Positions 15,288 through 46,496 of a DNA stretch of 64,000 nucleotides are shown piece by piece. The notes under the pieces were generated by a model. The model had not been told where the DNA came from, made no database searches, and worked only from the letters and a program-made list of their open reading frames with translations. A program made the translations under genes and the position numbers. This DNA comes from Shigella phage TB004. Position 1 is the first letter of the stretch. Each line of letters starts with the position of its first letter. The stretch lies in the sequence record MW822011, one strand, 5' to 3'.

Positions 15288-15360
15288 TGGGAATTAGCCA
15301 AGTTGGTAAGGCACTGGATTTTGATTCCAGGATGCAAAGGTTCGAGTCCTTTATTCCCAG
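15288..15360 (+). tRNA. tRNA-Gln (anticodon TTG)
   Basis: Hand-folded cloverleaf, GGTTCGAGTCC T-arm; no encoded CCA. Confidence 0.8.
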
Positions 15361-15361
15361 C

Positions 15362-15448
15362 GCGAGAATGGTCAAATTGGTAAAGGCACAGCACTTAAAA
15401 TGCTGCGGAATGATTTCCTTGTGGGTTCGAGTCCCACTTCTCGCACCA
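15362..15448 (+). tRNA. tRNA-Leu (anticodon TAA), long variable arm
   Basis: Acceptor GCGAGAA/TTCTCGC, anticodon loop CTTAAAA, CCA encoded. Confidence 0.8.
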
Positions 15449-15453
15449 AATTT

Positions 15454-15527
<74 letters not shown>

Positions 15528-15537
15528 ATTTAATTTA

Positions 15538-15611
15538 CTCCGTGTAGCTCAGTTTGGTAGAGCGTCTGCTTTGGGAGCAGAATGTCGCAGGTTCAAATCC
15601 TGCCGCGGAGA
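15538..15611 (+). tRNA. tRNA-Pro (anticodon TGG)
   Basis: D-stem GCTC/GAGC, anticodon loop TTTGGGA, GGTTCAAATCC T-arm. Confidence 0.8.
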
Positions 15612-15613
15612 CT

Positions 15614-15703
15614 GGAGGCGTGGCAGAGTGGTTTAATGCACCGGTCTTGAAAACCGGCAGTCGCTCCGGCGACTCATAGGTTCAAATCCTATCGCCTCCG
15701 CCA
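15614..15703 (+). tRNA. tRNA-Ser (anticodon TGA), class II
   Basis: Long variable arm, anticodon loop CTTGAAA, CCA encoded. Confidence 0.8.
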
Positions 15704-15708
15704 GTTTT

Positions 15709-15784
15709 GCTGATTTAGCTCAGTAGGTAGAGCAACTCACTTGTAATGAGAAGGTCGGCGGTTCGATTCCGTCAATCAGCACCA
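15709..15784 (+). tRNA. tRNA-Thr (anticodon TGT)
   Basis: Anticodon loop CTTGTAA, GGTTCGATTCC T-arm, CCA encoded. Confidence 0.8.
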
Positions 15785-15785
15785 A

Positions 15786-15860
15786 GGCCCTGTAGCTGGA
15801 AGGTTCAAGCAAGCGACTCATAATCGCCAGATGGTGGTTCAATTCCACCCAGGGCCACCA
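15786..15860 (+). tRNA. tRNA-Ile/Met-type (anticodon CAT; the T4 homologue is the AUA-reading tRNA-Ile)
   Basis: Acceptor GGCCCTG/CAGGGCC, anticodon loop CTCATAA. Confidence 0.7.
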
Positions 15861-15873
15861 AATTAAGAATTAA

Positions 15874-15960
15874 GGGGAGTTATCCCGTAGAGGTAGCGGT
15901 GTGGACTGTAAATCCATTGTCATTGCGACTCGGGTGGTTCGACTCCATCACTCCCCACCA
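15874..15960 (+). tRNA. tRNA-Tyr (anticodon GTA), class II; not in the T4 set
   Basis: Anticodon loop CTGTAAA, long variable arm resembling E. coli tRNA-Tyr, GGTTCGACTCC T-arm; D-arm atypical. Confidence 0.6.
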
Positions 15961-15964
15961 ATTT

Positions 15965-16038
15965 GGATGTGTAGCTCAGTGGTAGAGCAGTTGACTGTTA
16001 ATCAATTGGTCCATGGTTCGAATCCATGCATGTCCGCC
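15965..16038 (+). tRNA. tRNA-Asn (anticodon GTT); not in the T4 set
   Basis: D-stem GCTC/GAGC, anticodon loop CTGTTAA, T-stem CATGG/CCATG. Confidence 0.7.
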
Positions 16039-16164
16039 AAATTTGTGACAACTGTCACATTAATATCTACTTGACGCGATTATAGGGTTGAACTGATCAC
16101 TCTTCTCTTAATTTCGTGTGAAGACATCTTGATTGTTGGAGTAGGTATTAATGTGAACTAATTA

Positions 16165-16241
16165 CGGGGTGTAACTCAATTGTATAGAGTAGCGGTCCTC
16201 TAAACCGCAGGTTAAAGGTTAGAATCCTTTCACCCTGGCCA
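16165..16241 (+). tRNA. tRNA-Arg (anticodon TCT)
   Basis: Anticodon stem GCGGT/ACCGC, loop CCTCTAA, CCA encoded. Confidence 0.7.
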
Positions 16242-23317: not shown

Positions 23318-23682
23318 ATGACTCGTATTAATTTGACTTTAGTATCTGAACTTGCTGATCAACATTTAATCGCGGAATACCATGAATTGCCGCGTGTTTT
23401 TGATATAATTCGTAAACACGCGGCAAATGGAAAAATGATTATAATCCATGCAAATCAGCTATTAAGTTGAGTCAACAACGACTCGATGAAAAAATTTTAA
23501 TGAAGCCGCATTGGTATAAGTATTACGGCAAAAATATTTACATTCAAATAACATGGGAACAAGCTGGACCTCATGATTCTGTGAGGGATTCCCGCCAACC
23601 TGTAATAAGGTCGAGCCCAAGTGCGGTAATGGGTAAATACAGAAATGGACAATTCATGCGCCACGGAATGGCCCAAATTTAG
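23318..23682 (+). pseudogene. denV: denV (endonuclease V, pyrimidine-dimer glycosylase) with internal deletion and frame change
   Basis: N-terminal 46 aa [17 protein letters not shown]... then stop at 23470; C-terminal remnant SQQRLDEKI..KPHWYKYYGK in another frame. Confidence 0.65.
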
Positions 23683-23692
23683 AGATAACAAA

Positions 23693-24232
23693 ATGAGAAC
23701 ATTTTTAACTGGTCCTTATCTATCCCTGATGAATGCTTTTACACACCATTCTGATGCTAGAGTAGAAGAAATTTGTAAAAATGATTATATCCCACCATTC
23801 GAAGACTTACTCAAACAGTATTGCACACTTCGACTAGATGGTGGACGTCAATCCGGTAAATCAACTGCAGTAACTAATTTTGCCGCTAATTGGTTGTATG
23901 ACGGTGGAACAGTTATTGTTCTTTCTAATACTTCAGCTTATGCTAAAATTTCTGCGGGCCACATTAAAAAAGAGTTTTCTCGTTATTCTAGCGATGATAT
24001 TCGATTCCGCTTATTTACCGATTCTGTCCGTAGTTTTATCGGTAATAAAGGAAGCAAGTTCAGAGGTTTATCGCTTTCGCGGATTTTGTATATAATCGAT
24101 GAGCCTGTTAAATCTCCTGATATGGATAAAATTTACGATATTCATATTGAAACTGTGCACCACTGTTGCAATAGTAAATGCTGCATTGGTGGTATTACTC
24201 GTCCACAGTTTTTCATAATCGGAATGCAATGA
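23693..24232 (+). CDS. small P-loop NTPase
   Basis: Walker A GGRQSGKST, Walker B ILYIIDEP. Confidence 0.5.
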   Translation: MRTFLTGPYLSLMNAFTHHSDARVEEICKNDYIPPFEDLLKQYCTLRLDGGRQSGKSTAVTNFAANWLYDGGTVIVLSNTSAYAKISAGHIKKEFSRYSSDDIRFRLFTDSVRSFIGNKGSKFRGLSLSRILYIIDEPVKSPDMDKIYDIHIETVHHCCNSKCCIGGITRPQFFIIGMQ

Positions 24233-24558
24233 TGACAGACACGCAACTTTTCGAATATCTTTATTTTTCGCCAAAAACTATTAAAAATAAATTGGTGAAT
24301 CATTTTGAAATTTTGGCAAATAACAACGTCTTGAGCGAATTTTATCCTAAGCAATACAAATTACAAAAAGGTGTATTCAAAGGATGCAGAGTTTTGTGCA
24401 CTGCTCCTAATGCAAGATTAATGAATAAAATTCCATATTTTACCATGGAATTTATTGATGGGCCTTTTAAAGGACTAATTACCCAAAGTTTAATGGCATA
24501 TGATTCTGAGCCATTTTTAATTAAAGAGCAATCTTGGATAAATTTATTTTCTAATTGA
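24229..24558 (+). CDS. hypothetical protein (109 aa)
   Basis: ATG-initiated ORF overlapping the upstream stop. Confidence 0.4.
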
Positions 24559-24566
24559 GAGGTTAT

Positions 24567-24929
24567 ATGAAAGCATATCAAATTCTTGAAGGCACGCATA
24601 AAGGTACTATTTATTTTGAAGACGGTATTCAAGCACGAATTATTGTCTCTAAAACTTTTAAAGAGGACTCTTTTGTAGACCCAGAAATTTTCTATGGTTT
24701 GCATGCCCGTGAAATTGAAATTGAAACACAACCTACAGTTAAAATTGAGGGTGGTCAACACCTGAACGTTAACGTTCTGCGTCGTGAAACTCTGGAAGAT
24801 GCAGTTAAGCATCCGGAAAAATATCCACAGCTGACCATCCGTGTATCCGGTTATGCAGTTCGCTTTAACTCTCTGACTCCGGAACAACAGCGCGATGTTA
24901 TCGCTCGTACCTTTACTGAGAGCCTGTAA
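24567..24929 (+). CDS. autonomous glycyl radical cofactor (GrcA/YfiD-like)
   Basis: C-terminal [55 protein letters not shown], essentially the E. coli GrcA glycyl-radical domain. Confidence 0.85.
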
Positions 24930-25150
24930 TGGCAAAGATAATTATTGAAGGTTCTGAAGATGTGTTAAATGCTTTCGCCGAGTGGTTTAGTAATTCAGGC
25001 GAACAGCAATTTAATGAAGCGTGGAATATGGGTGATATTGATGGAATTTATCCTACGACAGAAATTTCTGTTCAAGGATATGGAATTCATGAGCCTATTC
25101 GTTTAGTTGAATATGATTTAGGTACTGGTGAGGAAGTAAAATATGATTGA
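24929..25150 (+). CDS. hypothetical protein (73 aa)
   Basis: ORF in the denV-regB interval. Confidence 0.4.
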   Translation: MAKIIIEGSEDVLNAFAEWFSNSGEQQFNEAWNMGDIDGIYPTTEISVQGYGIHEPIRLVEYDLGTGEEVKYD

Positions 25151-25409
25151 AGATATTAAGGGTTATAAGCCACATACTGAAGAGAAAATCGGTAAAGTGA
25201 ATGCTATTAAAGACGCTGAAGTTCGTTTAGGACTTATCTTTGATGCTTTATACGACGAATTCTGGGAAGTGCTAAATAATTGTGAAGACTATGAATTCGC
25301 GAAGAATTATGCTGAAAGCATCGATCAGTTAACTATTGCTAAAACGAAACTCAAAGAAGCCAGTATGTGGGCTTGTCGTGCTGTGTTCCAACCAGAGGAA
25401 AAATATTAA
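25143..25409 (+). CDS. hypothetical small helical protein (88 aa), syntenic with the T4 vs.3-vs.5 interval
   Basis: ORF; position only. Confidence 0.4.
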
Positions 25410-25687
25410 TGGCTCAATTAAGCGCAGGGTTTGGTTATGAGTATTATACTGCCCCTCGTCGTGTATCTGTTGCTCCTAAGAAAATTCAAAGTCTTGATGA
25501 CTTCCAGGAAGTAGTCCGTAAAGCTTTCCAGGACTATGCGCGTTATCTTAAAGAAGATTCACAGGACTGTCTCGAAGAAGATGAAATTGCTTACTATGAG
25601 CAGCGTCTTGAACAGCTTAAAAACCTACATGAGGTTCGTGCAGAAGTTTCAAAGTCTATGAATAAATTGATTAGATTTAAAGAATAA
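25409..25687 (+). CDS. hypothetical small protein (92 aa)
   Basis: ATG overlapping the upstream stop. Confidence 0.4.
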
Positions 25688-25721
25688 CTGTTTACTTTTC
25701 CTCTTGACTGTGGTATAATTT
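25687..25721 (+). promoter_or_regulatory. T4-type early promoter
   Basis: GTTTAC ... TGTGGTATAAT. Confidence 0.55.
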
Positions 25722-25746
25722 TTCTATCAGTTAAGAGGAGAATAAC

Positions 25747-26208
25747 ATGACTATCAACACAGAAGTTTTTATCCGTCGAAATAAGCTCCGTCGTCACTTT
25801 GAGTCGGAGTTTCGTCAAATTAACAATGAGATTCGTGAGGCATCAAAAGCAGCAGGGGTCTCATCGTTTCATCTAAAATATTCTCAACATCTTCTTGATC
25901 GTGCAATTCAACGGGAGATTGATGAGACATATGTTTTTGAATTATTCCACAAAATAAAAGACCATGTTTTAGAAGTTAATGAATTCCTGAGTATGCCTCC
26001 ACGCCCTGATATTGACGAAGATTTTATTGATGGTGTTGAATATCGTCCTGGGCGTTTAGAAATCACAGATGGAAATCTTTGGCTTGGATTTACAGTTTGT
26101 AAACCTAATGCGAAGTTCAAAGACCCGTCGCTTCAATGCAGGATGGCAATTATCAATAGTCGTCGTTTACCGGGAAAGGCTTCTAAAGCAGTAATTAAAA
26201 CTCAATGA
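25747..26208 (+). CDS. regB: RegB endoribonuclease
   Basis: 153-aa ORF MTINTEVFIRRNKLRRHFESEF...; size and position. Confidence 0.7.
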   Translation: MTINTEVFIRRNKLRRHFESEFRQINNEIREASKAAGVSSFHLKYSQHLLDRAIQREIDETYVFELFHKIKDHVLEVNEFLSMPPRPDIDEDFIDGVEYRPGRLEITDGNLWLGFTVCKPNAKFKDPSLQCRMAIINSRRLPGKASKAVIKTQ

Positions 26209-42912: not shown

Positions 42913-43386
42913 ATGTTATTGACTGGCAAATTATACAAAGAAGAAAAACAGAAATTTTATGATGCACAAAACGGTAAATGCTTAATTTGCCAACGAGAAC
43001 TAAATCCTGATGTTCAAGCTAATCACCTTGACCATGACCATGAATTAAATGGACCAAAAGCAGGAAAGGTACGTGGGTTGCTATGTAATCTCTGCAATGC
43101 TGCAGAAGGTCAAATGAAACATAAATTTAATCGTTCTGGCTTAAAGGGACAAGGTGTTGATTATCTTGAATGGTTAGAAAATTTACTTACTTATTTAAAA
43201 TCCGATTACACCCAAAATAATATTCACCCTAACTTTGTTGGAGATAAATCAAAGGAATTTTCTCGTTTAGGAAAAGAGGAAATGATGGCTGAGATGCTTC
43301 AAAGAGGATTTGAATATAATGAATTTGACACTAAAACACAATTAATAGCTTCATTTAAGAAGCAGCTTAGAAAGAGTTTAAAATGA
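42913..43386 (+). CDS. 49: recombination endonuclease VII (gp49)
   Basis: 157 aa with CLICQ...H-D-H-E...CNLCN zinc motif. Confidence 0.85.
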   Translation: MLLTGKLYKEEKQKFYDAQNGKCLICQRELNPDVQANHLDHDHELNGPKAGKVRGLLCNLCNAAEGQMKHKFNRSGLKGQGVDYLEWLENLLTYLKSDYTQNNIHPNFVGDKSKEFSRLGKEEMMAEMLQRGFEYNEFDTKTQLIASFKKQLRKSLK

Positions 43387-45200
43387 CAATTGAAAAAGAA
43401 ATTGAAGGATTGATTCATAAAACTAATAAAGACCTTTTAAACGAGAATGCTAATAAAGATTCTCGTGTTTTTCCAACTCAACGGGACCTTATGGCTGGTA
43501 TTGTGTCTAAGCACATTGCCAAAAATATGGTCCCGTCTTTTATTATGAAAGCACATGAAAGCGGAATCATTCACGTGCATGATATTGATTATTCTCCTGC
43601 TCTTCCGTTTACTAATTGCTGTTTAGTAGATTTAAAAGGAATGCTTGAAAACGGATTTAAATTAGGCAATGCACAGATTGAAACTCCTAAATCAATCGGT
43701 GTTGCTACTGCAATTATGGCACAAATTACTGCACAGGTTGCTTCCCATCAATACGGCGGAACGACTTTTGCGAATGTAGACAAAGTACTTTCTCCTTATG
43801 TTAAACGCACCTATGCAAAACATATTGAAGATGCAGAAAAATGGCAAATCGCTGATGCGTTGAATTATGCCCAATCTAAAACAGAAAAAGACGTATACGA
43901 TGCGTTCCAAGCTTATGAATATGAAGTAAATACTCTCTTTAGTTCAAACGGACAAACTCCTTTTGTAACAATTACATTTGGTACGGGAACTGACTGGACT
44001 GAACGAATGATTCAGAAAGCAATTCTGAAAAATCGCATTAAAGGTCTTGGCCGCGACGGGATAACTCCTATTTTCCCTAAACTTGTTATGTTTGTTGAAG
44101 AAGGTGTTAATCTTTATAAAGACGATCCGAACTATGATATTAAGCAGCTTGCTCTAGAGTGTGCAAGCAAAAGAATGTATCCTGATATTATTTCAGCTAA
44201 GAACAATAAAGCTATCACCGGTTCATCTATTCCTGTTTCTCCAATGGGTTGCCGTAGTTTCTTGAGCGTATGGAAAGATTCGACTGGTAATGAAATTCTT
44301 GATGGACGTAATAATCTTGGCGTTGTAACACTGAATCTTCCTCGTATTGCATTAGATTCTTATATTGGAACACAGTTCAATGAACAGAAATTTGCCGAAT
44401 TGTTCAATGAACGAATGGATTTGTGTTTTGAAGCATTGATGTGTAGAATTAGTTCATTAAAAGGAGTTAAATCTACTGTTGCTCCTATTCTTTACCAAGA
44501 AGGTGCATTCGGGGTTCGTCTTAAACCCGATGATGATATAATTGAGTTATTTAAAAACGGTAGAAGTTCAGTATCCCTAGGATACATTGGTATTCACGAA
44601 TTGAATATTCTTGTCGGTCGTGATATTGGTCAGGAAATTTTAACTAAAATGAATGCACATCTTAAGCAGTGGACTGAAAGAACTGGTTTTGCTTTTAGCT
44701 TGTATTCTACACCTGCTGAAAACCTGTGTTATCGCTTCTGTAAACTCGATACCGAAAAATATGGAAGTGTAAAGGATGTTACTGATAAAGGCTGGTACAC
44801 TAACAGTTTCCATGTTTCAGTAGAAGAAAATATCACTCCGTTTGAAAAGATTTCTCGCGAAGCGCCATATCATTTCATTGCGACAGGTGGTCACATTTCT
44901 TATGTTGAACTTCCTGATATGAAAAATAACCTAAAGGGTCTTGAGGCTGTATGGGATTATGCTGCACAACATTTAGATTATTTTGGTGTTAATATGCCAG
45001 TAGATAAATGTTTTACATGTGGAAGTACCCATGAAATGACTCCTACTGAAAACGGATTTGTTTGTTCTATTTGTGGAGAAACTGATCCTAAAAAGATGAA
45101 CACAATAAGAAGAACATGCGGATATTTGGGAAACCCGAACGAACGCGGATTTAATCTTGGTAAAAATAAAGAAATCATGCATAGGGTTAAACACCAATGA
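43383..45200 (+). CDS. nrdD: anaerobic ribonucleoside-triphosphate reductase NrdD (uninterrupted)
   Basis: 605-aa continuous ORF ending in glycyl-radical motif RRTCGYLGNP and Cys cluster. Confidence 0.9.
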   Translation: MTIEKEIEGLIHKTNKDLLNENANKDSRVFPTQRDLMAGIVSKHIAKNMVPSFIMKAHESGIIHVHDIDYSPALPFTNCCLVDLKGMLENGFKLGNAQIETPKSIGVATAIMAQITAQVASHQYGGTTFANVDKVLSPYVKRTYAKHIEDAEKWQIADALNYAQSKTEKDVYDAFQAYEYEVNTLFSSNGQTPFVTITFGTGTDWTERMIQKAILKNRIKGLGRDGITPIFPKLVMFVEEGVNLYKDDPNYDIKQLALECASKRMYPDIISAKNNKAITGSSIPVSPMGCRSFLSVWKDSTGNEILDGRNNLGVVTLNLPRIALDSYIGTQFNEQKFAELFNERMDLCFEALMCRISSLKGVKSTVAPILYQEGAFGVRLKPDDDIIELFKNGRSSVSLGYIGIHELNILVGRDIGQEILTKMNAHLKQWTERTGFAFSLYSTPAENLCYRFCKLDTEKYGSVKDVTDKGWYTNSFHVSVEENITPFEKISREAPYHFIATGGHISYVELPDMKNNLKGLEAVWDYAAQHLDYFGVNMPVDKCFTCGSTHEMTPTENGFVCSICGETDPKKMNTIRRTCGYLGNPNERGFNLGKNKEIMHRVKHQ

Positions 45201-46036
45201 ATTACGATAGATTTTATCCCTGTGATTTTGTGAATGATAAATTAACTTTAATATTTGAAGAAAATAATGATTTATTATTGTCATATGTTGATTTGATAAT
45301 AAAAAATTATAATAATCCTAAAATAAAGGGGAAAACGGAAGCACATCACGTGCTTCCCAAATCTATATTTCCTGAATATAAAACAGATAAATGGAATATT
45401 GTTAATTTGTCATATTATGACCATGCATTGGCTCATTACTATTTAGCTAAAACAAGTAATAGTAAAATGTGTTATGCCTTTCATAGAATGATAAACTCGA
45501 ATACTGATAGATTTAATACTGATGAATTGGATGAAATTTTTAAATTGTATTCCAAAGAAAGGGAATTATTTCACCGCTCTATGTCAAAATTATCGAAAAA
45601 TATATGGAAAGATGACGATTTTAGAAAAAGACATAGCGAACTAACTAAGTTAGCAATGCAAAAACCTGAAGTTAGAAATAAAACTTTATTAAATTTGTCA
45701 AATGCAATGAAAACTGATAAAGTTAGAAATAAAATTTCAAGGCTAACTAAGTTAGCAATGCAAAAACCTGAAGTAAAAGAAAAACATAGAAATTCATTAA
45801 AGCTGGCGTATGCAAATCCTGAGGTTATGAAAAGGAAACATCAGCGTCTTCGAGAAAAATATACTCTTAATTTATTTGGCGCATATAAAGATGGTGTTCT
45901 TTTAAAAACATTTAATTATATACCAGACGCAGCAAAATATTTTAATATTTCTAGCAAAGGAAATATTTTAAAATGTTTAAATGGCGAACGTAAAAGTGTT
46001 GAAGGCTATAATTGGAAATATATAAATGAATTATGA
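45197..46036 (+). CDS. HNH homing endonuclease (Mob-like) between nrdD and nrdG
   Basis: HNH motif EAHHVLPKS...NIVNLSYYDHALAH; N-terminal 14 codons mimic nrdG; C-terminal DNA-binding module. Confidence 0.7.
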   Translation: MNYDRFYPCDFVNDKLTLIFEENNDLLLSYVDLIIKNYNNPKIKGKTEAHHVLPKSIFPEYKTDKWNIVNLSYYDHALAHYYLAKTSNSKMCYAFHRMINSNTDRFNTDELDEIFKLYSKERELFHRSMSKLSKNIWKDDDFRKRHSELTKLAMQKPEVRNKTLLNLSNAMKTDKVRNKISRLTKLAMQKPEVKEKHRNSLKLAYANPEVMKRKHQRLREKYTLNLFGAYKDGVLLKTFNYIPDAAKYFNISSKGNILKCLNGERKSVEGYNWKYINEL

Positions 46037-46496
46037 CAGAATATATCCGTGTTGCTTTGTTAATGGTCCTGGGTGCCGAACTGTTCTTTTCGTTACGGGG
46101 TGTTTGCATAAATGTGAAGGATGTTATAATAAATCAACATGGAATGCTAGAAATGGCGTTCCATTCACTGGTGAAACACTGGAACAATTAATTGAATGTT
46201 TGAATAATGATTATATAGAAGGATTAACTATAACTGGAGGAGACCCTCTCTATCCTGATAACCGAGATGTTATTCATTGCATCGTTCAAACAGTAAAAAA
46301 TCTTTATCCCAATAAAAGCATTTGGTTGTGGACAGGATACAAGTTTGAAGATATTAAACAACTAGAAATGCTTAAATATGTTGATGTTATTATTGATGGG
46401 AAGTATGAGAAAAATCTTCCGACCAAAAAGCTGTGGCGAGGTTCAGATAATCAGCGACTTTGGTCAAATACCGATGGGGTGTGGAAACATGATTAA
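46026..46496 (+). CDS. nrdG: anaerobic RNR activating protein NrdG (radical SAM)
   Basis: Cys motifs CRTVLFVTGCLHKCEGC. Confidence 0.85.
   Translation: MNYDRIYPCCFVNGPGCRTVLFVTGCLHKCEGCYNKSTWNARNGVPFTGETLEQLIECLNNDYIEGLTITGGDPLYPDNRDVIHCIVQTVKNLYPNKSIWLWTGYKFEDIKQLEMLKYVDVIIDGKYEKNLPTKKLWRGSDNQRLWSNTDGVWKHD

What the first reader, a model, noticed from the sequence alone, without database searches (positions are those of the whole stretch)
24567..24929. Phage-encoded GrcA-like glycyl radical cofactor
The C-terminal 60 residues are essentially identical to the E. coli GrcA/YfiD glycyl-radical domain (…RVSGYAVRF…). T4 carries the same kind of spare part for oxygen-damaged pyruvate formate-lyase. 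Together with nrdD/nrdG it points to an anaerobic-metabolism support module.
Basis: partly seen in the sequence, partly recalled or inferred. Interest (0 to 1): 0.35.

Follow-up and report, generated by a model that had tools for sequence, protein, structure and literature searches.

The report
T4 vs.6: phage GrcA spare part
This is the well-known T4-type phage gene vs.6 (Y06I), a small "spare part" that can repair the host's oxygen-damaged pyruvate formate-lyase; the gene is ordinary, but its 3' half is almost base-for-base a copy of the E. coli host gene.

Summary
Window 24567..24929 (+) is an intact 120-codon ORF, and its last 60 residues are 60/60 identical to E. coli GrcA/YfiD, including the radical glycine (G95, RVSGYAV). 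The window is a Tequatrovirus. The ORF is the ortholog of T4 vs.6/Y06I (one amino-acid difference), which was shown in 2001 to be activated by PFL activase and to restore activity to oxygen-cleaved PFL. The gene and its function are therefore already known.

The new detail is that the gene is a sharp mosaic:
- Nucleotides 1-178 are phage-like: 47% identical to E. coli grcA, GC3 0.18.
- Nucleotides 179-363 are 97.3% identical to E. coli grcA DNA, GC3 0.42. T4 itself is identical at 171/171 positions.
- This is the only stretch of the 64 kb window that matches the E. coli chromosome.
- Klebsiella-infecting relatives (Jiaodavirus) carry a Klebsiella-type tract (94-98%) with the same 5' junction.
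- T4 and a Mosigvirus share a 100% identical tract, while the flanking DNA is only about 70% identical.

This indicates repeated host-to-phage gene conversion. nrdD and nrdG lie 18.5 kb away, so they do not form a contiguous module here, although grcA is adjacent to them in some other phages.

The parts
24567..24929 (+). vs.6 / Y06I / phage grcA coding sequence (120 aa plus stop)
   Evidence: ORF listing and sequence. 96.7-98.6% nucleotide identity to T4 and REP4 vs.6. Pfam, NCBIfam, PHROG and PDB matches.
24559..24562 (+). Shine-Dalgarno GAGG, 4 nt upstream of the ATG; it lies just after the TGA stop (24556-24558) of the upstream gene vs.7
   Evidence: Read directly from the sequence.
24567..24744 (+). 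Phage-type 5' half, encoding the N-terminal half of the protein (aa 1-59). [quoted passage not shown]
   Evidence: 47.2% nucleotide identity to E. coli grcA (84/178). GC3 0.18 with phage codon usage. hhalign of N-terminal halves alone gives 93.8% probability, E=1.7e-7. dN/dS is 0.06-0.32 among phages.
24745..24929 (+). Host-derived tract, encoding the structured glycyl-radical domain (aa 60/61-120). It is nearly identical in DNA to E. coli grcA.
   Evidence: 180/185 identical to E. coli grcA. The maximum chi-square breakpoint falls at 24745 (chi2 114.8; 0 of 5000 permutations reach it). GC3 0.42, Leu CTG 6/6, Arg CGT/CGC 6/6. It is the only match of the 64 kb window to E. coli chromosomes.
24849..24851 (+). 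Codon of Gly95, the predicted radical-bearing glycine (equivalent to GrcA G102 and PFL G734)
   Evidence: Alignment to 6owr and 1h16 and the sequence itself.
43383..45200 (+). nrdD (class III ribonucleotide reductase). Functionally related but not contiguous with vs.6.
   Evidence: Pfam NRDD 3.5e-171 and Gly_radical 1.2e-25. No significant similarity to the vs.6 product (BLASTP E=6.3).
46026..46496 (+). nrdG (radical-SAM activase of NrdD). Functionally related but not contiguous with vs.6.
   Evidence: Pfam Fer4_12 2.9e-48 and Radical_SAM.

Best explanation
The ORF is the vs.6 (Y06I) gene of a T4-like phage (Tequatrovirus). It is a phage-encoded autonomous glycyl radical cofactor of the GrcA/YfiD type.

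Proposed mechanism:
1. In an infected E. coli growing with little oxygen, the host's pyruvate formate-lyase (PflB) is cut at its radical glycine (G734) whenever oxygen reaches it.
2. The 120-aa phage protein binds the cleaved enzyme, using its N-terminal half for binding.
3. Its C-terminal 60 residues are identical to host GrcA and have the fold of PFL 693-759. They insert into the active site.
4. The host activase PflA installs a new radical on G95, and PFL activity is restored.
5. This keeps acetyl-CoA/ATP and formate flowing after the phage has shut off host gene expression. Formate is also the reductant for the phage's own anaerobic ribonucleotide reductase NrdD.

What is shown and what is inferred:
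- Activation by PFL activase and reconstitution of cleaved PFL were shown in vitro for T4 Y06I, which differs by one residue.
- The benefit during infection and the formate link to NrdD are inferred.

Evolution: the gene is a mosaic. An old phage-resident grcA homolog has had its 3' half (from codon 60/61 to within a few codons of the stop) overwritten by the host's grcA through homologous recombination. This has happened more than once, each time from the host genus that the phage lineage infects.
For: Identity and function:
- The ORF and its motif are confirmed.
- It is the ortholog of T4 vs.6 by sequence and synteny. KP15 and G5211 annotations and Nolan 2006 (PMC1524935) name it vs.6 and show it is conserved in all T4-like genomes examined.
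- Published biochemistry covers Y06I and YfiD, including domain roles (YfiD 1-60 disordered and needed for binding and activation; 61-127 with the fold of PFL 693-759): PMC8683613.
- The gene is intact in about 1465 phage records.
- The 5' half is under purifying selection (dN/dS 0.06-0.32) and is homologous to the GrcA N-terminal half (hhalign 93.8%).

Mosaic:
- The breakpoint is at 24745, with 47% identity to its left and 97.3% to its right.
- Codon usage switches at the same point.
- E. coli is the closest of 81 host species: 97-99%, against at most 92% for the next genus.
- T4 is 171/171 identical to E. coli over the tract.

Independent events:
- Jiaodavirus Klebsiella phages are 94-96% identical to Klebsiella grcA against 87% to E. 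coli; E. coli phages show the reverse.
- 79 phage records match the K. pneumoniae tract at 95-99%.
- The 5' junction is the same in both groups.
- T4 versus Mosigvirus RPN187: tract 172/172 identical, 5' half 88.8%, flanking DNA 68-72%; dS is 0 in the tract and 0.35 in the 5' half.

Link to NrdD:
- Formate is the NrdD reductant (PMC4493059).
- grcA is adjacent to nrdD/nrdG in other phages.
Against: - No in vivo phenotype for vs.6 during infection was found in the searchable literature. T4 ORFs of this kind are non-essential in the laboratory (PMC1524935).
- The protein scores below the curated NCBIfam GrcA equivalog cut-off (154.6 against 170 bits) because its N-terminal half is only about 30% identical to GrcA and lacks about 7 residues. 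Since that half matters for binding and activation in YfiD, quantitative behaviour may differ from the host protein.
- The phage encodes no PflA in this window, so function depends entirely on host PflA and PflB being present.
- For the conversion model, spread of one converted allele between phage genera by phage-phage recombination cannot be separated from independent Tequatrovirus and Mosigvirus events.
Confidence: 0.82

Rival explanations
1. The protein is a spare glycyl-radical domain for the phage's own anaerobic ribonucleotide reductase NrdD, activated by NrdG, rather than for host PFL.
For: NrdD is also a glycyl radical enzyme that oxygen cleaves at its glycine. In jumbo Salmonella phages the grcA homolog lies between nrdD and nrdG, and in Aeromonas phages directly after nrdD or nrdG. 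Nolan 2006 speculated about a role in nucleotide metabolism.
Against: The vs.6 product has no significant similarity to the window's NrdD (BLASTP E=6.3). Its C-terminal 60 aa are identical to GrcA and 81% identical to PFL 697-759. Published assays used PFL and PFL activase. The adjacency is equally well explained by formate supply to NrdD.
Confidence: 0.03
2. The gene is a functionless passenger. On this view the host-like tract is a neutral by-product of T4's very active recombination machinery acting on degraded host DNA, and the ORF gives the phage no benefit.
For: The gene is non-essential in laboratory T4. The tract is identical at synonymous sites, so it reflects recombination rather than selection on the protein.
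Against: The ORF is intact in about 1465 phage genomes across Straboviridae, T5-like, jumbo and Aeromonas phages. The phage-specific 5' half shows purifying selection (dN/dS 0.06-0.32). In lineages with no recent conversion the C-terminal domain still has dN about 0 against saturated dS (KP15 versus K. pneumoniae). The T4 protein is active in vitro.
Confidence: 0.07
3. The protein acts as a decoy or modulator. With a host-identical radical domain but a divergent N-terminal half, it would compete with host GrcA or titrate PflA, redirecting pyruvate flux or radical budget instead of simply repairing PFL.
For: The N-terminal half, which in YfiD governs binding to cleaved PFL and the efficiency of activation, is only about 30% identical in the phage protein and has conserved phage-specific features.
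Against: Y06I reconstituted the activity of oxygen-fragmented PFL in vitro, as YfiD does. Nothing in the sequence indicates loss of the radical site.
Confidence: 0.06

Closest known systems
Bacteriophage T4 Y06I (gene vs.6), autonomous glycyl radical cofactor
   Same: Same gene: 96.7% nucleotide identity, 119/120 amino acids, and the same neighbours (vs.8, vs.7 | vs.6 | vs.5, vs.4/Acb2, vs.3, regB). It has the same mosaic structure, with an E. coli-identical 3' tract.
   Different: One residue differs (T54 here, P54 in T4). There are five synonymous differences from E. coli grcA in the 185-nt tract, against two in T4. In the last three codons this phage is E. coli-like (AGC CTG) where T4 is not (AGT TTG).
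E. coli GrcA (YfiD), PDB 6owr
   Same: It is a small standalone protein. The C-terminal 60 residues are identical, including the radical glycine loop and C-terminal helix. The N-terminal half is homologous (hhalign 93.8%). It presumably depends on PflA in the same way and targets the same cleaved PFL.
   Different: It is 120 aa rather than 127 aa. The N-terminal half is only about 30% identical and lacks the segment around NSFWLLDSEKG. It scores below the TIGR04365 cut-off. It is expressed from a phage early/middle gene cluster instead of the host's FNR- and acid-regulated promoter (that regulation is from established knowledge, not tested here).
C-terminal glycyl radical domain of pyruvate formate-lyase PflB (PDB 1h16, 2pfl)
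   Same: Residues 58-120 align to PFL 697-759 with E=4.8e-26, with the same [13 protein letters not shown] radical loop.
   Different: It is a free-standing domain rather than part of the 759-aa enzyme. At the DNA level the donor of the tract is grcA (97%), not pflB or tdcE, which fall in the 60-80% band.
Cyanophage psbA and other phage auxiliary metabolic genes that exchange segments with the host copy (recalled from the literature, not checked here)
   Same: A host-derived metabolic gene is carried by a lytic phage and shows intragenic patches of host sequence acquired by homologous recombination.
   Different: Here the exchanged patch is one sharply bounded domain of about 175-185 nt. It is up to 100% identical to the host and has been replaced independently from E. 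coli and from Klebsiella in sister phage genera.

Membership tests
GrcA/YfiD autonomous glycyl radical cofactor (spare part for PFL) | Small standalone protein (about 120-130 aa) consisting essentially of a glycyl radical domain | tested here: met
   120-aa ORF. Pfam Gly_radical is the only domain found, at residues 60-101.
GrcA/YfiD autonomous glycyl radical cofactor (spare part for PFL) | Conserved radical glycine in the PFL-type loop RVSGYAV(R/N)F | tested here: met
   G95 lies in RVSGYAVRF. Residues 61-120 are 60/60 identical to GrcA 68-127.
GrcA/YfiD autonomous glycyl radical cofactor (spare part for PFL) | Closer to the PFL C-terminus than to other glycyl radical enzymes | tested here: met
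   PFL scores 94.3 bits. YbiW, CutC, glycerol dehydratase and others score 50 bits or less. There is no similarity to NrdD.
GrcA/YfiD autonomous glycyl radical cofactor (spare part for PFL) | Passes the curated equivalog model (NCBIfam TIGR04365, cut-off 170 bits) | tested here: not met
   154.6 bits over residues 20-120. The shortfall comes from the divergent, shorter N-terminal half. That half alone is still detectably homologous to the GrcA N-terminal half (hhalign 93.8%, E=1.7e-7).
GrcA/YfiD autonomous glycyl radical cofactor (spare part for PFL) | Radical installed by PFL activase (PflA) | not testable with these tools
   Reported for T4 Y06I, which differs by one residue from this protein (Wagner 2001, as cited in PMC8683613).
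GrcA/YfiD autonomous glycyl radical cofactor (spare part for PFL) | Restores activity to oxygen-cleaved PFL | not testable with these tools
   Reported in vitro for T4 Y06I and YfiD. No in vivo phage data were found.
T4 vs.6 ortholog group (phrog_1209) | Full-length match and conserved position in the denV-regB early/middle gene cluster | tested here: met
   phrog_1209 at 5.4e-63 over residues 1-120. The gene order matches T4.
Contiguous anaerobic module with nrdD/nrdG | Physical adjacency or co-transcription with nrdD/nrdG | tested here: not met
   nrdD lies at 43383..45200 and nrdG at 46026..46496, 18.5 kb from vs.6. Adjacency exists only in other phage lineages.

The most novel reading that the evidence does not exclude
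The 3' half of vs.6 may be repeatedly re-copied from the grcA gene of whichever enterobacterial host the phage lineage is replicating in. This would be host-templated gene conversion, bounded on the 5' side by the point where phage-host homology ends. The phage spare part would then stay base-for-base matched to the host, and the tract would serve as a record of a phage lineage's recent host genus. At least three lineages show it: Tequatrovirus and Mosigvirus from E. coli, and Jiaodavirus from Klebsiella. I found no description of this in the searchable literature.
Probability: 0.7. Interest if true: 0.45.

Novelty: already known. Interest (0 to 1): 0.3.

Why it matters
The gene itself adds nothing new. 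It is the T4 vs.6/Y06I spare part, characterised in vitro in 2001 and routinely annotated as GrcA in phage genomes.

The DNA-level mosaic is of modest interest for three reasons:
- It is a clean, quantifiable example of a lytic phage's auxiliary metabolic gene being overwritten by the host's own allele, in a host-genus-specific way.
- It offers a possible marker of recent host history. For example, "Yersinia" and "Salmonella" T4-like phages carry E. coli-type or Klebsiella-type tracts.
- It is an experimentally tractable system for measuring host-to-phage gene conversion in T4.

The recurrent adjacency of grcA to nrdD/nrdG in unrelated phages also supports the idea that phages protect formate supply for anaerobic dNTP synthesis. 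That idea has not been tested in vivo.

Tried and rejected
- Antisense ORF 24342..24935 (-), 197 aa with a TTG start: no PHROG family. It runs opposite a well-supported gene, so I treat it as a chance ORF.
- RNA element: no Rfam match in 23500..26000 at E<=0.1.
- Own promoter or terminator: consensus scans found no more promoter-like sites than in shuffles and none directly upstream of vs.6. The gene is tightly packed, with a TGA/SD overlap upstream and a TAATG overlap downstream, so it is probably co-transcribed with its neighbours.
- Longer host tract in some Mosigviruses: BLAST reported E. coli query 255-491 for RPN187 and HX01. Alignment showed this was only an extension through weakly similar sequence, and the junction is the same as in T4.
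- Host-specific tracts from Salmonella or Enterobacter: none found. The best phage matches are 83.6% and below 95% respectively. T5-like, Karamvirus, Slopekvirus, Pseudotevenvirus, Krischvirus and jumbo-phage copies are 72-86% identical to any host in my set.
- NrdD spare part: rejected, because there is no sequence similarity.
- Literature searches for a prior description of the mosaic found nothing. Miller 2003 and Bowman 2019 are not held, so prior mention cannot be excluded.
- Structure prediction was not run. The C-terminal half is identical to a solved structure, so a model would add little.

Full report
**1. The observation**

Window 24567..24929 (+) is an intact ORF of 120 codons plus a TAA stop. 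It has a GAGG Shine-Dalgarno 4 nt upstream, and its stop overlaps the start of the next gene (TAATG). The product carries a single Pfam domain, Gly_radical (E=2.2e-18, residues 60-101). It matches the NMR structure of E. coli GrcA/YfiD (6owr) at E=4.6e-42 over residues 22-120. Residues 61-120 are identical to GrcA 68-127 at 60 of 60 positions. The radical glycine is G95 in RVSGYAVRF. The next-best solved relatives are PFL chains (697-759, E=4.8e-26), and all other glycyl radical enzymes score far lower.

**2. What the window is and which gene this is**

The ORF is 98.6% identical in DNA to Escherichia phage REP4 and 96.7% to T4, and 922 phage records cover at least 80% of it. In T4 the same position, between vs.7 and vs.5 and upstream of Acb2/vs.4 and regB, holds the gene annotated "autonomous glycyl radical cofactor". 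Other T4-like records label it Vs.6. Nolan et al. 2006 list vs.6 as a Gly_radical ORF conserved in 6/6 T4-like genomes (PMC1524935). The window protein differs from T4 Y06I at one residue (T54 versus P54).

Y06I and YfiD are the only two spare-part proteins validated biochemically. PFL activase installs a radical on them, and they reconstitute oxygen-cleaved PFL (Wagner et al. 2001, as described in PMC8683613; also the review PMC13450708). The gene and its in vitro function are therefore already known.

**3. The mosaic**

Aligning the gene with E. coli grcA shows a very sharp break.
- A maximum chi-square scan places the break at gene position 179, which is window 24745. Identity is 84/178 (47.2%) to the left and 180/185 (97.3%) to the right. 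The chi2 is 114.8, no permutation out of 5000 reaches it, and the largest permuted value is 26.2.
- Composition and codon usage switch at the same place. The 5' half has GC 0.33, GC3 0.18 and Ile ATT 9/9. The 3' half has GC 0.49, GC3 0.42, Leu CTG 6/6 and Arg CGT/CGC 6/6. Both neighbouring genes are phage-like.
- All 5426 complete E. coli genomes hold the tract in grcA, in the 95-99% identity band.
- A megablast of the whole 64 kb against those genomes finds this tract as the only match to any E. coli chromosome.
- T4 itself is 171/171 identical to E. coli over the tract.
- Among grcA genes of 81 host species, E. coli is the closest (97-99%). A cryptic Escherichia clade comes next, and then Citrobacter at 90-92%.
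- The direction is host to phage. The tract has host codon usage and sits in a phage of 35% GC, and the host gene is universal in E. coli and its relatives.

**4. The 5' half is an old homolog, not an unrelated fusion partner**

TIGR04365 (GrcA) aligns residues 20-120, although at 154.6 bits it falls below its 170-bit cut-off. A profile of T4-type N-terminal halves alone aligns to a profile of host GrcA N-terminal halves with 93.8% probability (E=1.7e-7, 32% identity, phage 14-60 to GrcA 18-67). Metagenomic phage forms bridge the two sequence types. Among phages the 5' half evolves under purifying selection (dN/dS 0.06-0.32).

In YfiD, residues 1-60 are disordered but are needed for binding cleaved PFL and for efficient activation. 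Residues 61-127 have the fold of PFL 693-759 (PMC8683613). The recombination junction (phage codon 60/61, GrcA 67/68) therefore lies a few residues inside the structured domain, exactly where phage-host sequence similarity begins.

**5. It has happened more than once**

Comparison with Klebsiella phages:
- Jiaodavirus Klebsiella phages (Phi_KR8, 15882-6) are 94-96% identical to Klebsiella grcA over the tract and 87% to E. coli.
- The E. coli phages are 96-100% identical to E. coli and 84-88% to K. pneumoniae.
- The two host genes are 87% identical to each other.
- The Klebsiella-specific third-position states are visible in the alignment, and the 5' junction is the same.
- In the phage collection, 79 records match the K. 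pneumoniae tract at 95-99% and 60 at 90-95%. About 500 records match the E. coli tract at 95% or more.

Comparison between the two E. coli phage genera:
- T4 and Mosigvirus RPN187 share a 172/172 identical tract, with dS = 0.
- Their 5' halves are 88.8% identical (dS 0.35), and the flanking 220-300 nt only 68-72%.
- The differences of individual phages from the E. coli sequence within the tract are mostly private, scattered synonymous changes.
- The last about 10 nt before the stop show mixed phage-like and host-like states in different phages. This hints at different 3' end-points.

Other lineages (Karamvirus, Slopekvirus, Pseudotevenvirus, Krischvirus, T5-like, jumbo and Aeromonas phages) have tracts 72-86% identical to any host tested. 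Their amino-acid conservation is nevertheless very strong; for example, KP15 versus K. pneumoniae has dN 0 and saturated dS. No Salmonella-type or Enterobacter-type tracts were found.

The simplest reading is repeated homologous gene conversion from host DNA. This is plausible for T4-type phages, which degrade host DNA and recombine very actively (established knowledge, not tested here). One conversion spreading between genera by phage-phage recombination cannot be excluded for Tequatrovirus and Mosigvirus. The E. coli and Klebsiella tracts must come from separate events.

**6. How it most likely works**

1. Host PFL is cleaved at G734 by oxygen.
2. The phage protein binds the cleaved enzyme.
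3. Host PflA generates the radical on G95, and activity resumes.
4. Because T4-type phages stop host gene expression, a phage-encoded copy guarantees a supply of the spare part.

Formate from PFL is the reductant of class III ribonucleotide reductases (PMC4493059). This gives a rationale for a link with the phage's NrdD and NrdG. In this window they lie 18.5 kb away, so "module" is true only in a functional sense. However, the grcA homolog lies between nrdD and nrdG in jumbo Salmonella phages (Munch, L122, L124, L125). It lies after nrdD-nrdG in L145 and directly after nrdD in Aeromonas phage BUCT695.

The in vitro steps are published for the T4 protein. The in vivo benefit and the formate link are inference.

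**7. Rivals**

- A spare part for NrdD is very unlikely, because there is no similarity to NrdD and the domain is identical to GrcA.
- A functionless passenger is unlikely, given conservation across about 1465 phage genomes and purifying selection.
- A decoy or modulator role cannot be excluded, because the N-terminal half differs. It runs against the published reconstitution.

**8. Verdict**

The gene is already known. The host-specific, repeatedly renewed 3' tract is a neat evolutionary detail that I could not find described in the searchable literature. It is analogous to host-phage exchange in other auxiliary metabolic genes. Overall interest is modest.

Noticed in passing
window 23318..23700: denV (endonuclease V) appears broken. 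A 50-aa N-terminal ORF (23318..23470) is followed by the C-terminal remnant in another frame. Close relatives align to this 421-nt stretch in two pieces spanning about 607 nt, which implies an internal deletion of about 186 nt here.
   Followed up: partly
window 25143..25409: The vs.4 ortholog carries the Acb2/Tad1 hairpin domain (PF24729, E=1e-19). This is the anti-CBASS cyclic-nucleotide sponge, and it lies two genes downstream of vs.6.
   Followed up: no
window 45197..46036: A 279-aa ORF inserted between nrdD and nrdG has weak NUMOD1 and I-HmuI NUMOD-like hits. It is probably a mobE-type homing endonuclease.
   Followed up: no
window 15288..16241: A cluster of 10 tRNA genes: Gln, Leu, Gly, Pro, Ser, Thr, Met(CAT), Tyr, Asn, Arg. 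The Tyr-Asn part (15868..16025) matches tRNA clusters on E. coli plasmids at 83-90% and does not match any E. coli chromosome.
   Followed up: partly
L091 621-983 (Salmonella phage Munch); L122, L124, L125, L145; L097 612-986 (Aeromonas phage BUCT695): In jumbo phages and in Aeromonas phages the grcA homolog is immediately adjacent to nrdD and/or nrdG (orders nrdD-grcA-nrdG, nrdD-nrdG-grcA, nrdD-grcA). This differs from T4-type genomes.
   Followed up: partly
phage records (e.g. Yersinia phages phiD1 and fPS-2; Salmonella phage PSE-D1): Some phages named for Yersinia carry the E. coli-type grcA tract (about 98%). A phage named for Salmonella carries the Klebsiella-type tract (97.1%). The tract may therefore report a different recent host from the isolation host.
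   Followed up: no
L126 2845-3297 (IMG/VR contig, 19 kb): One 'viral' contig carries a full-length host-type grcA (MITGIQITKA..., 91% identical in the tract to a Yersinia gene). It is probably a prophage flank or host DNA rather than a phage vs.6-type gene.
   Followed up: no
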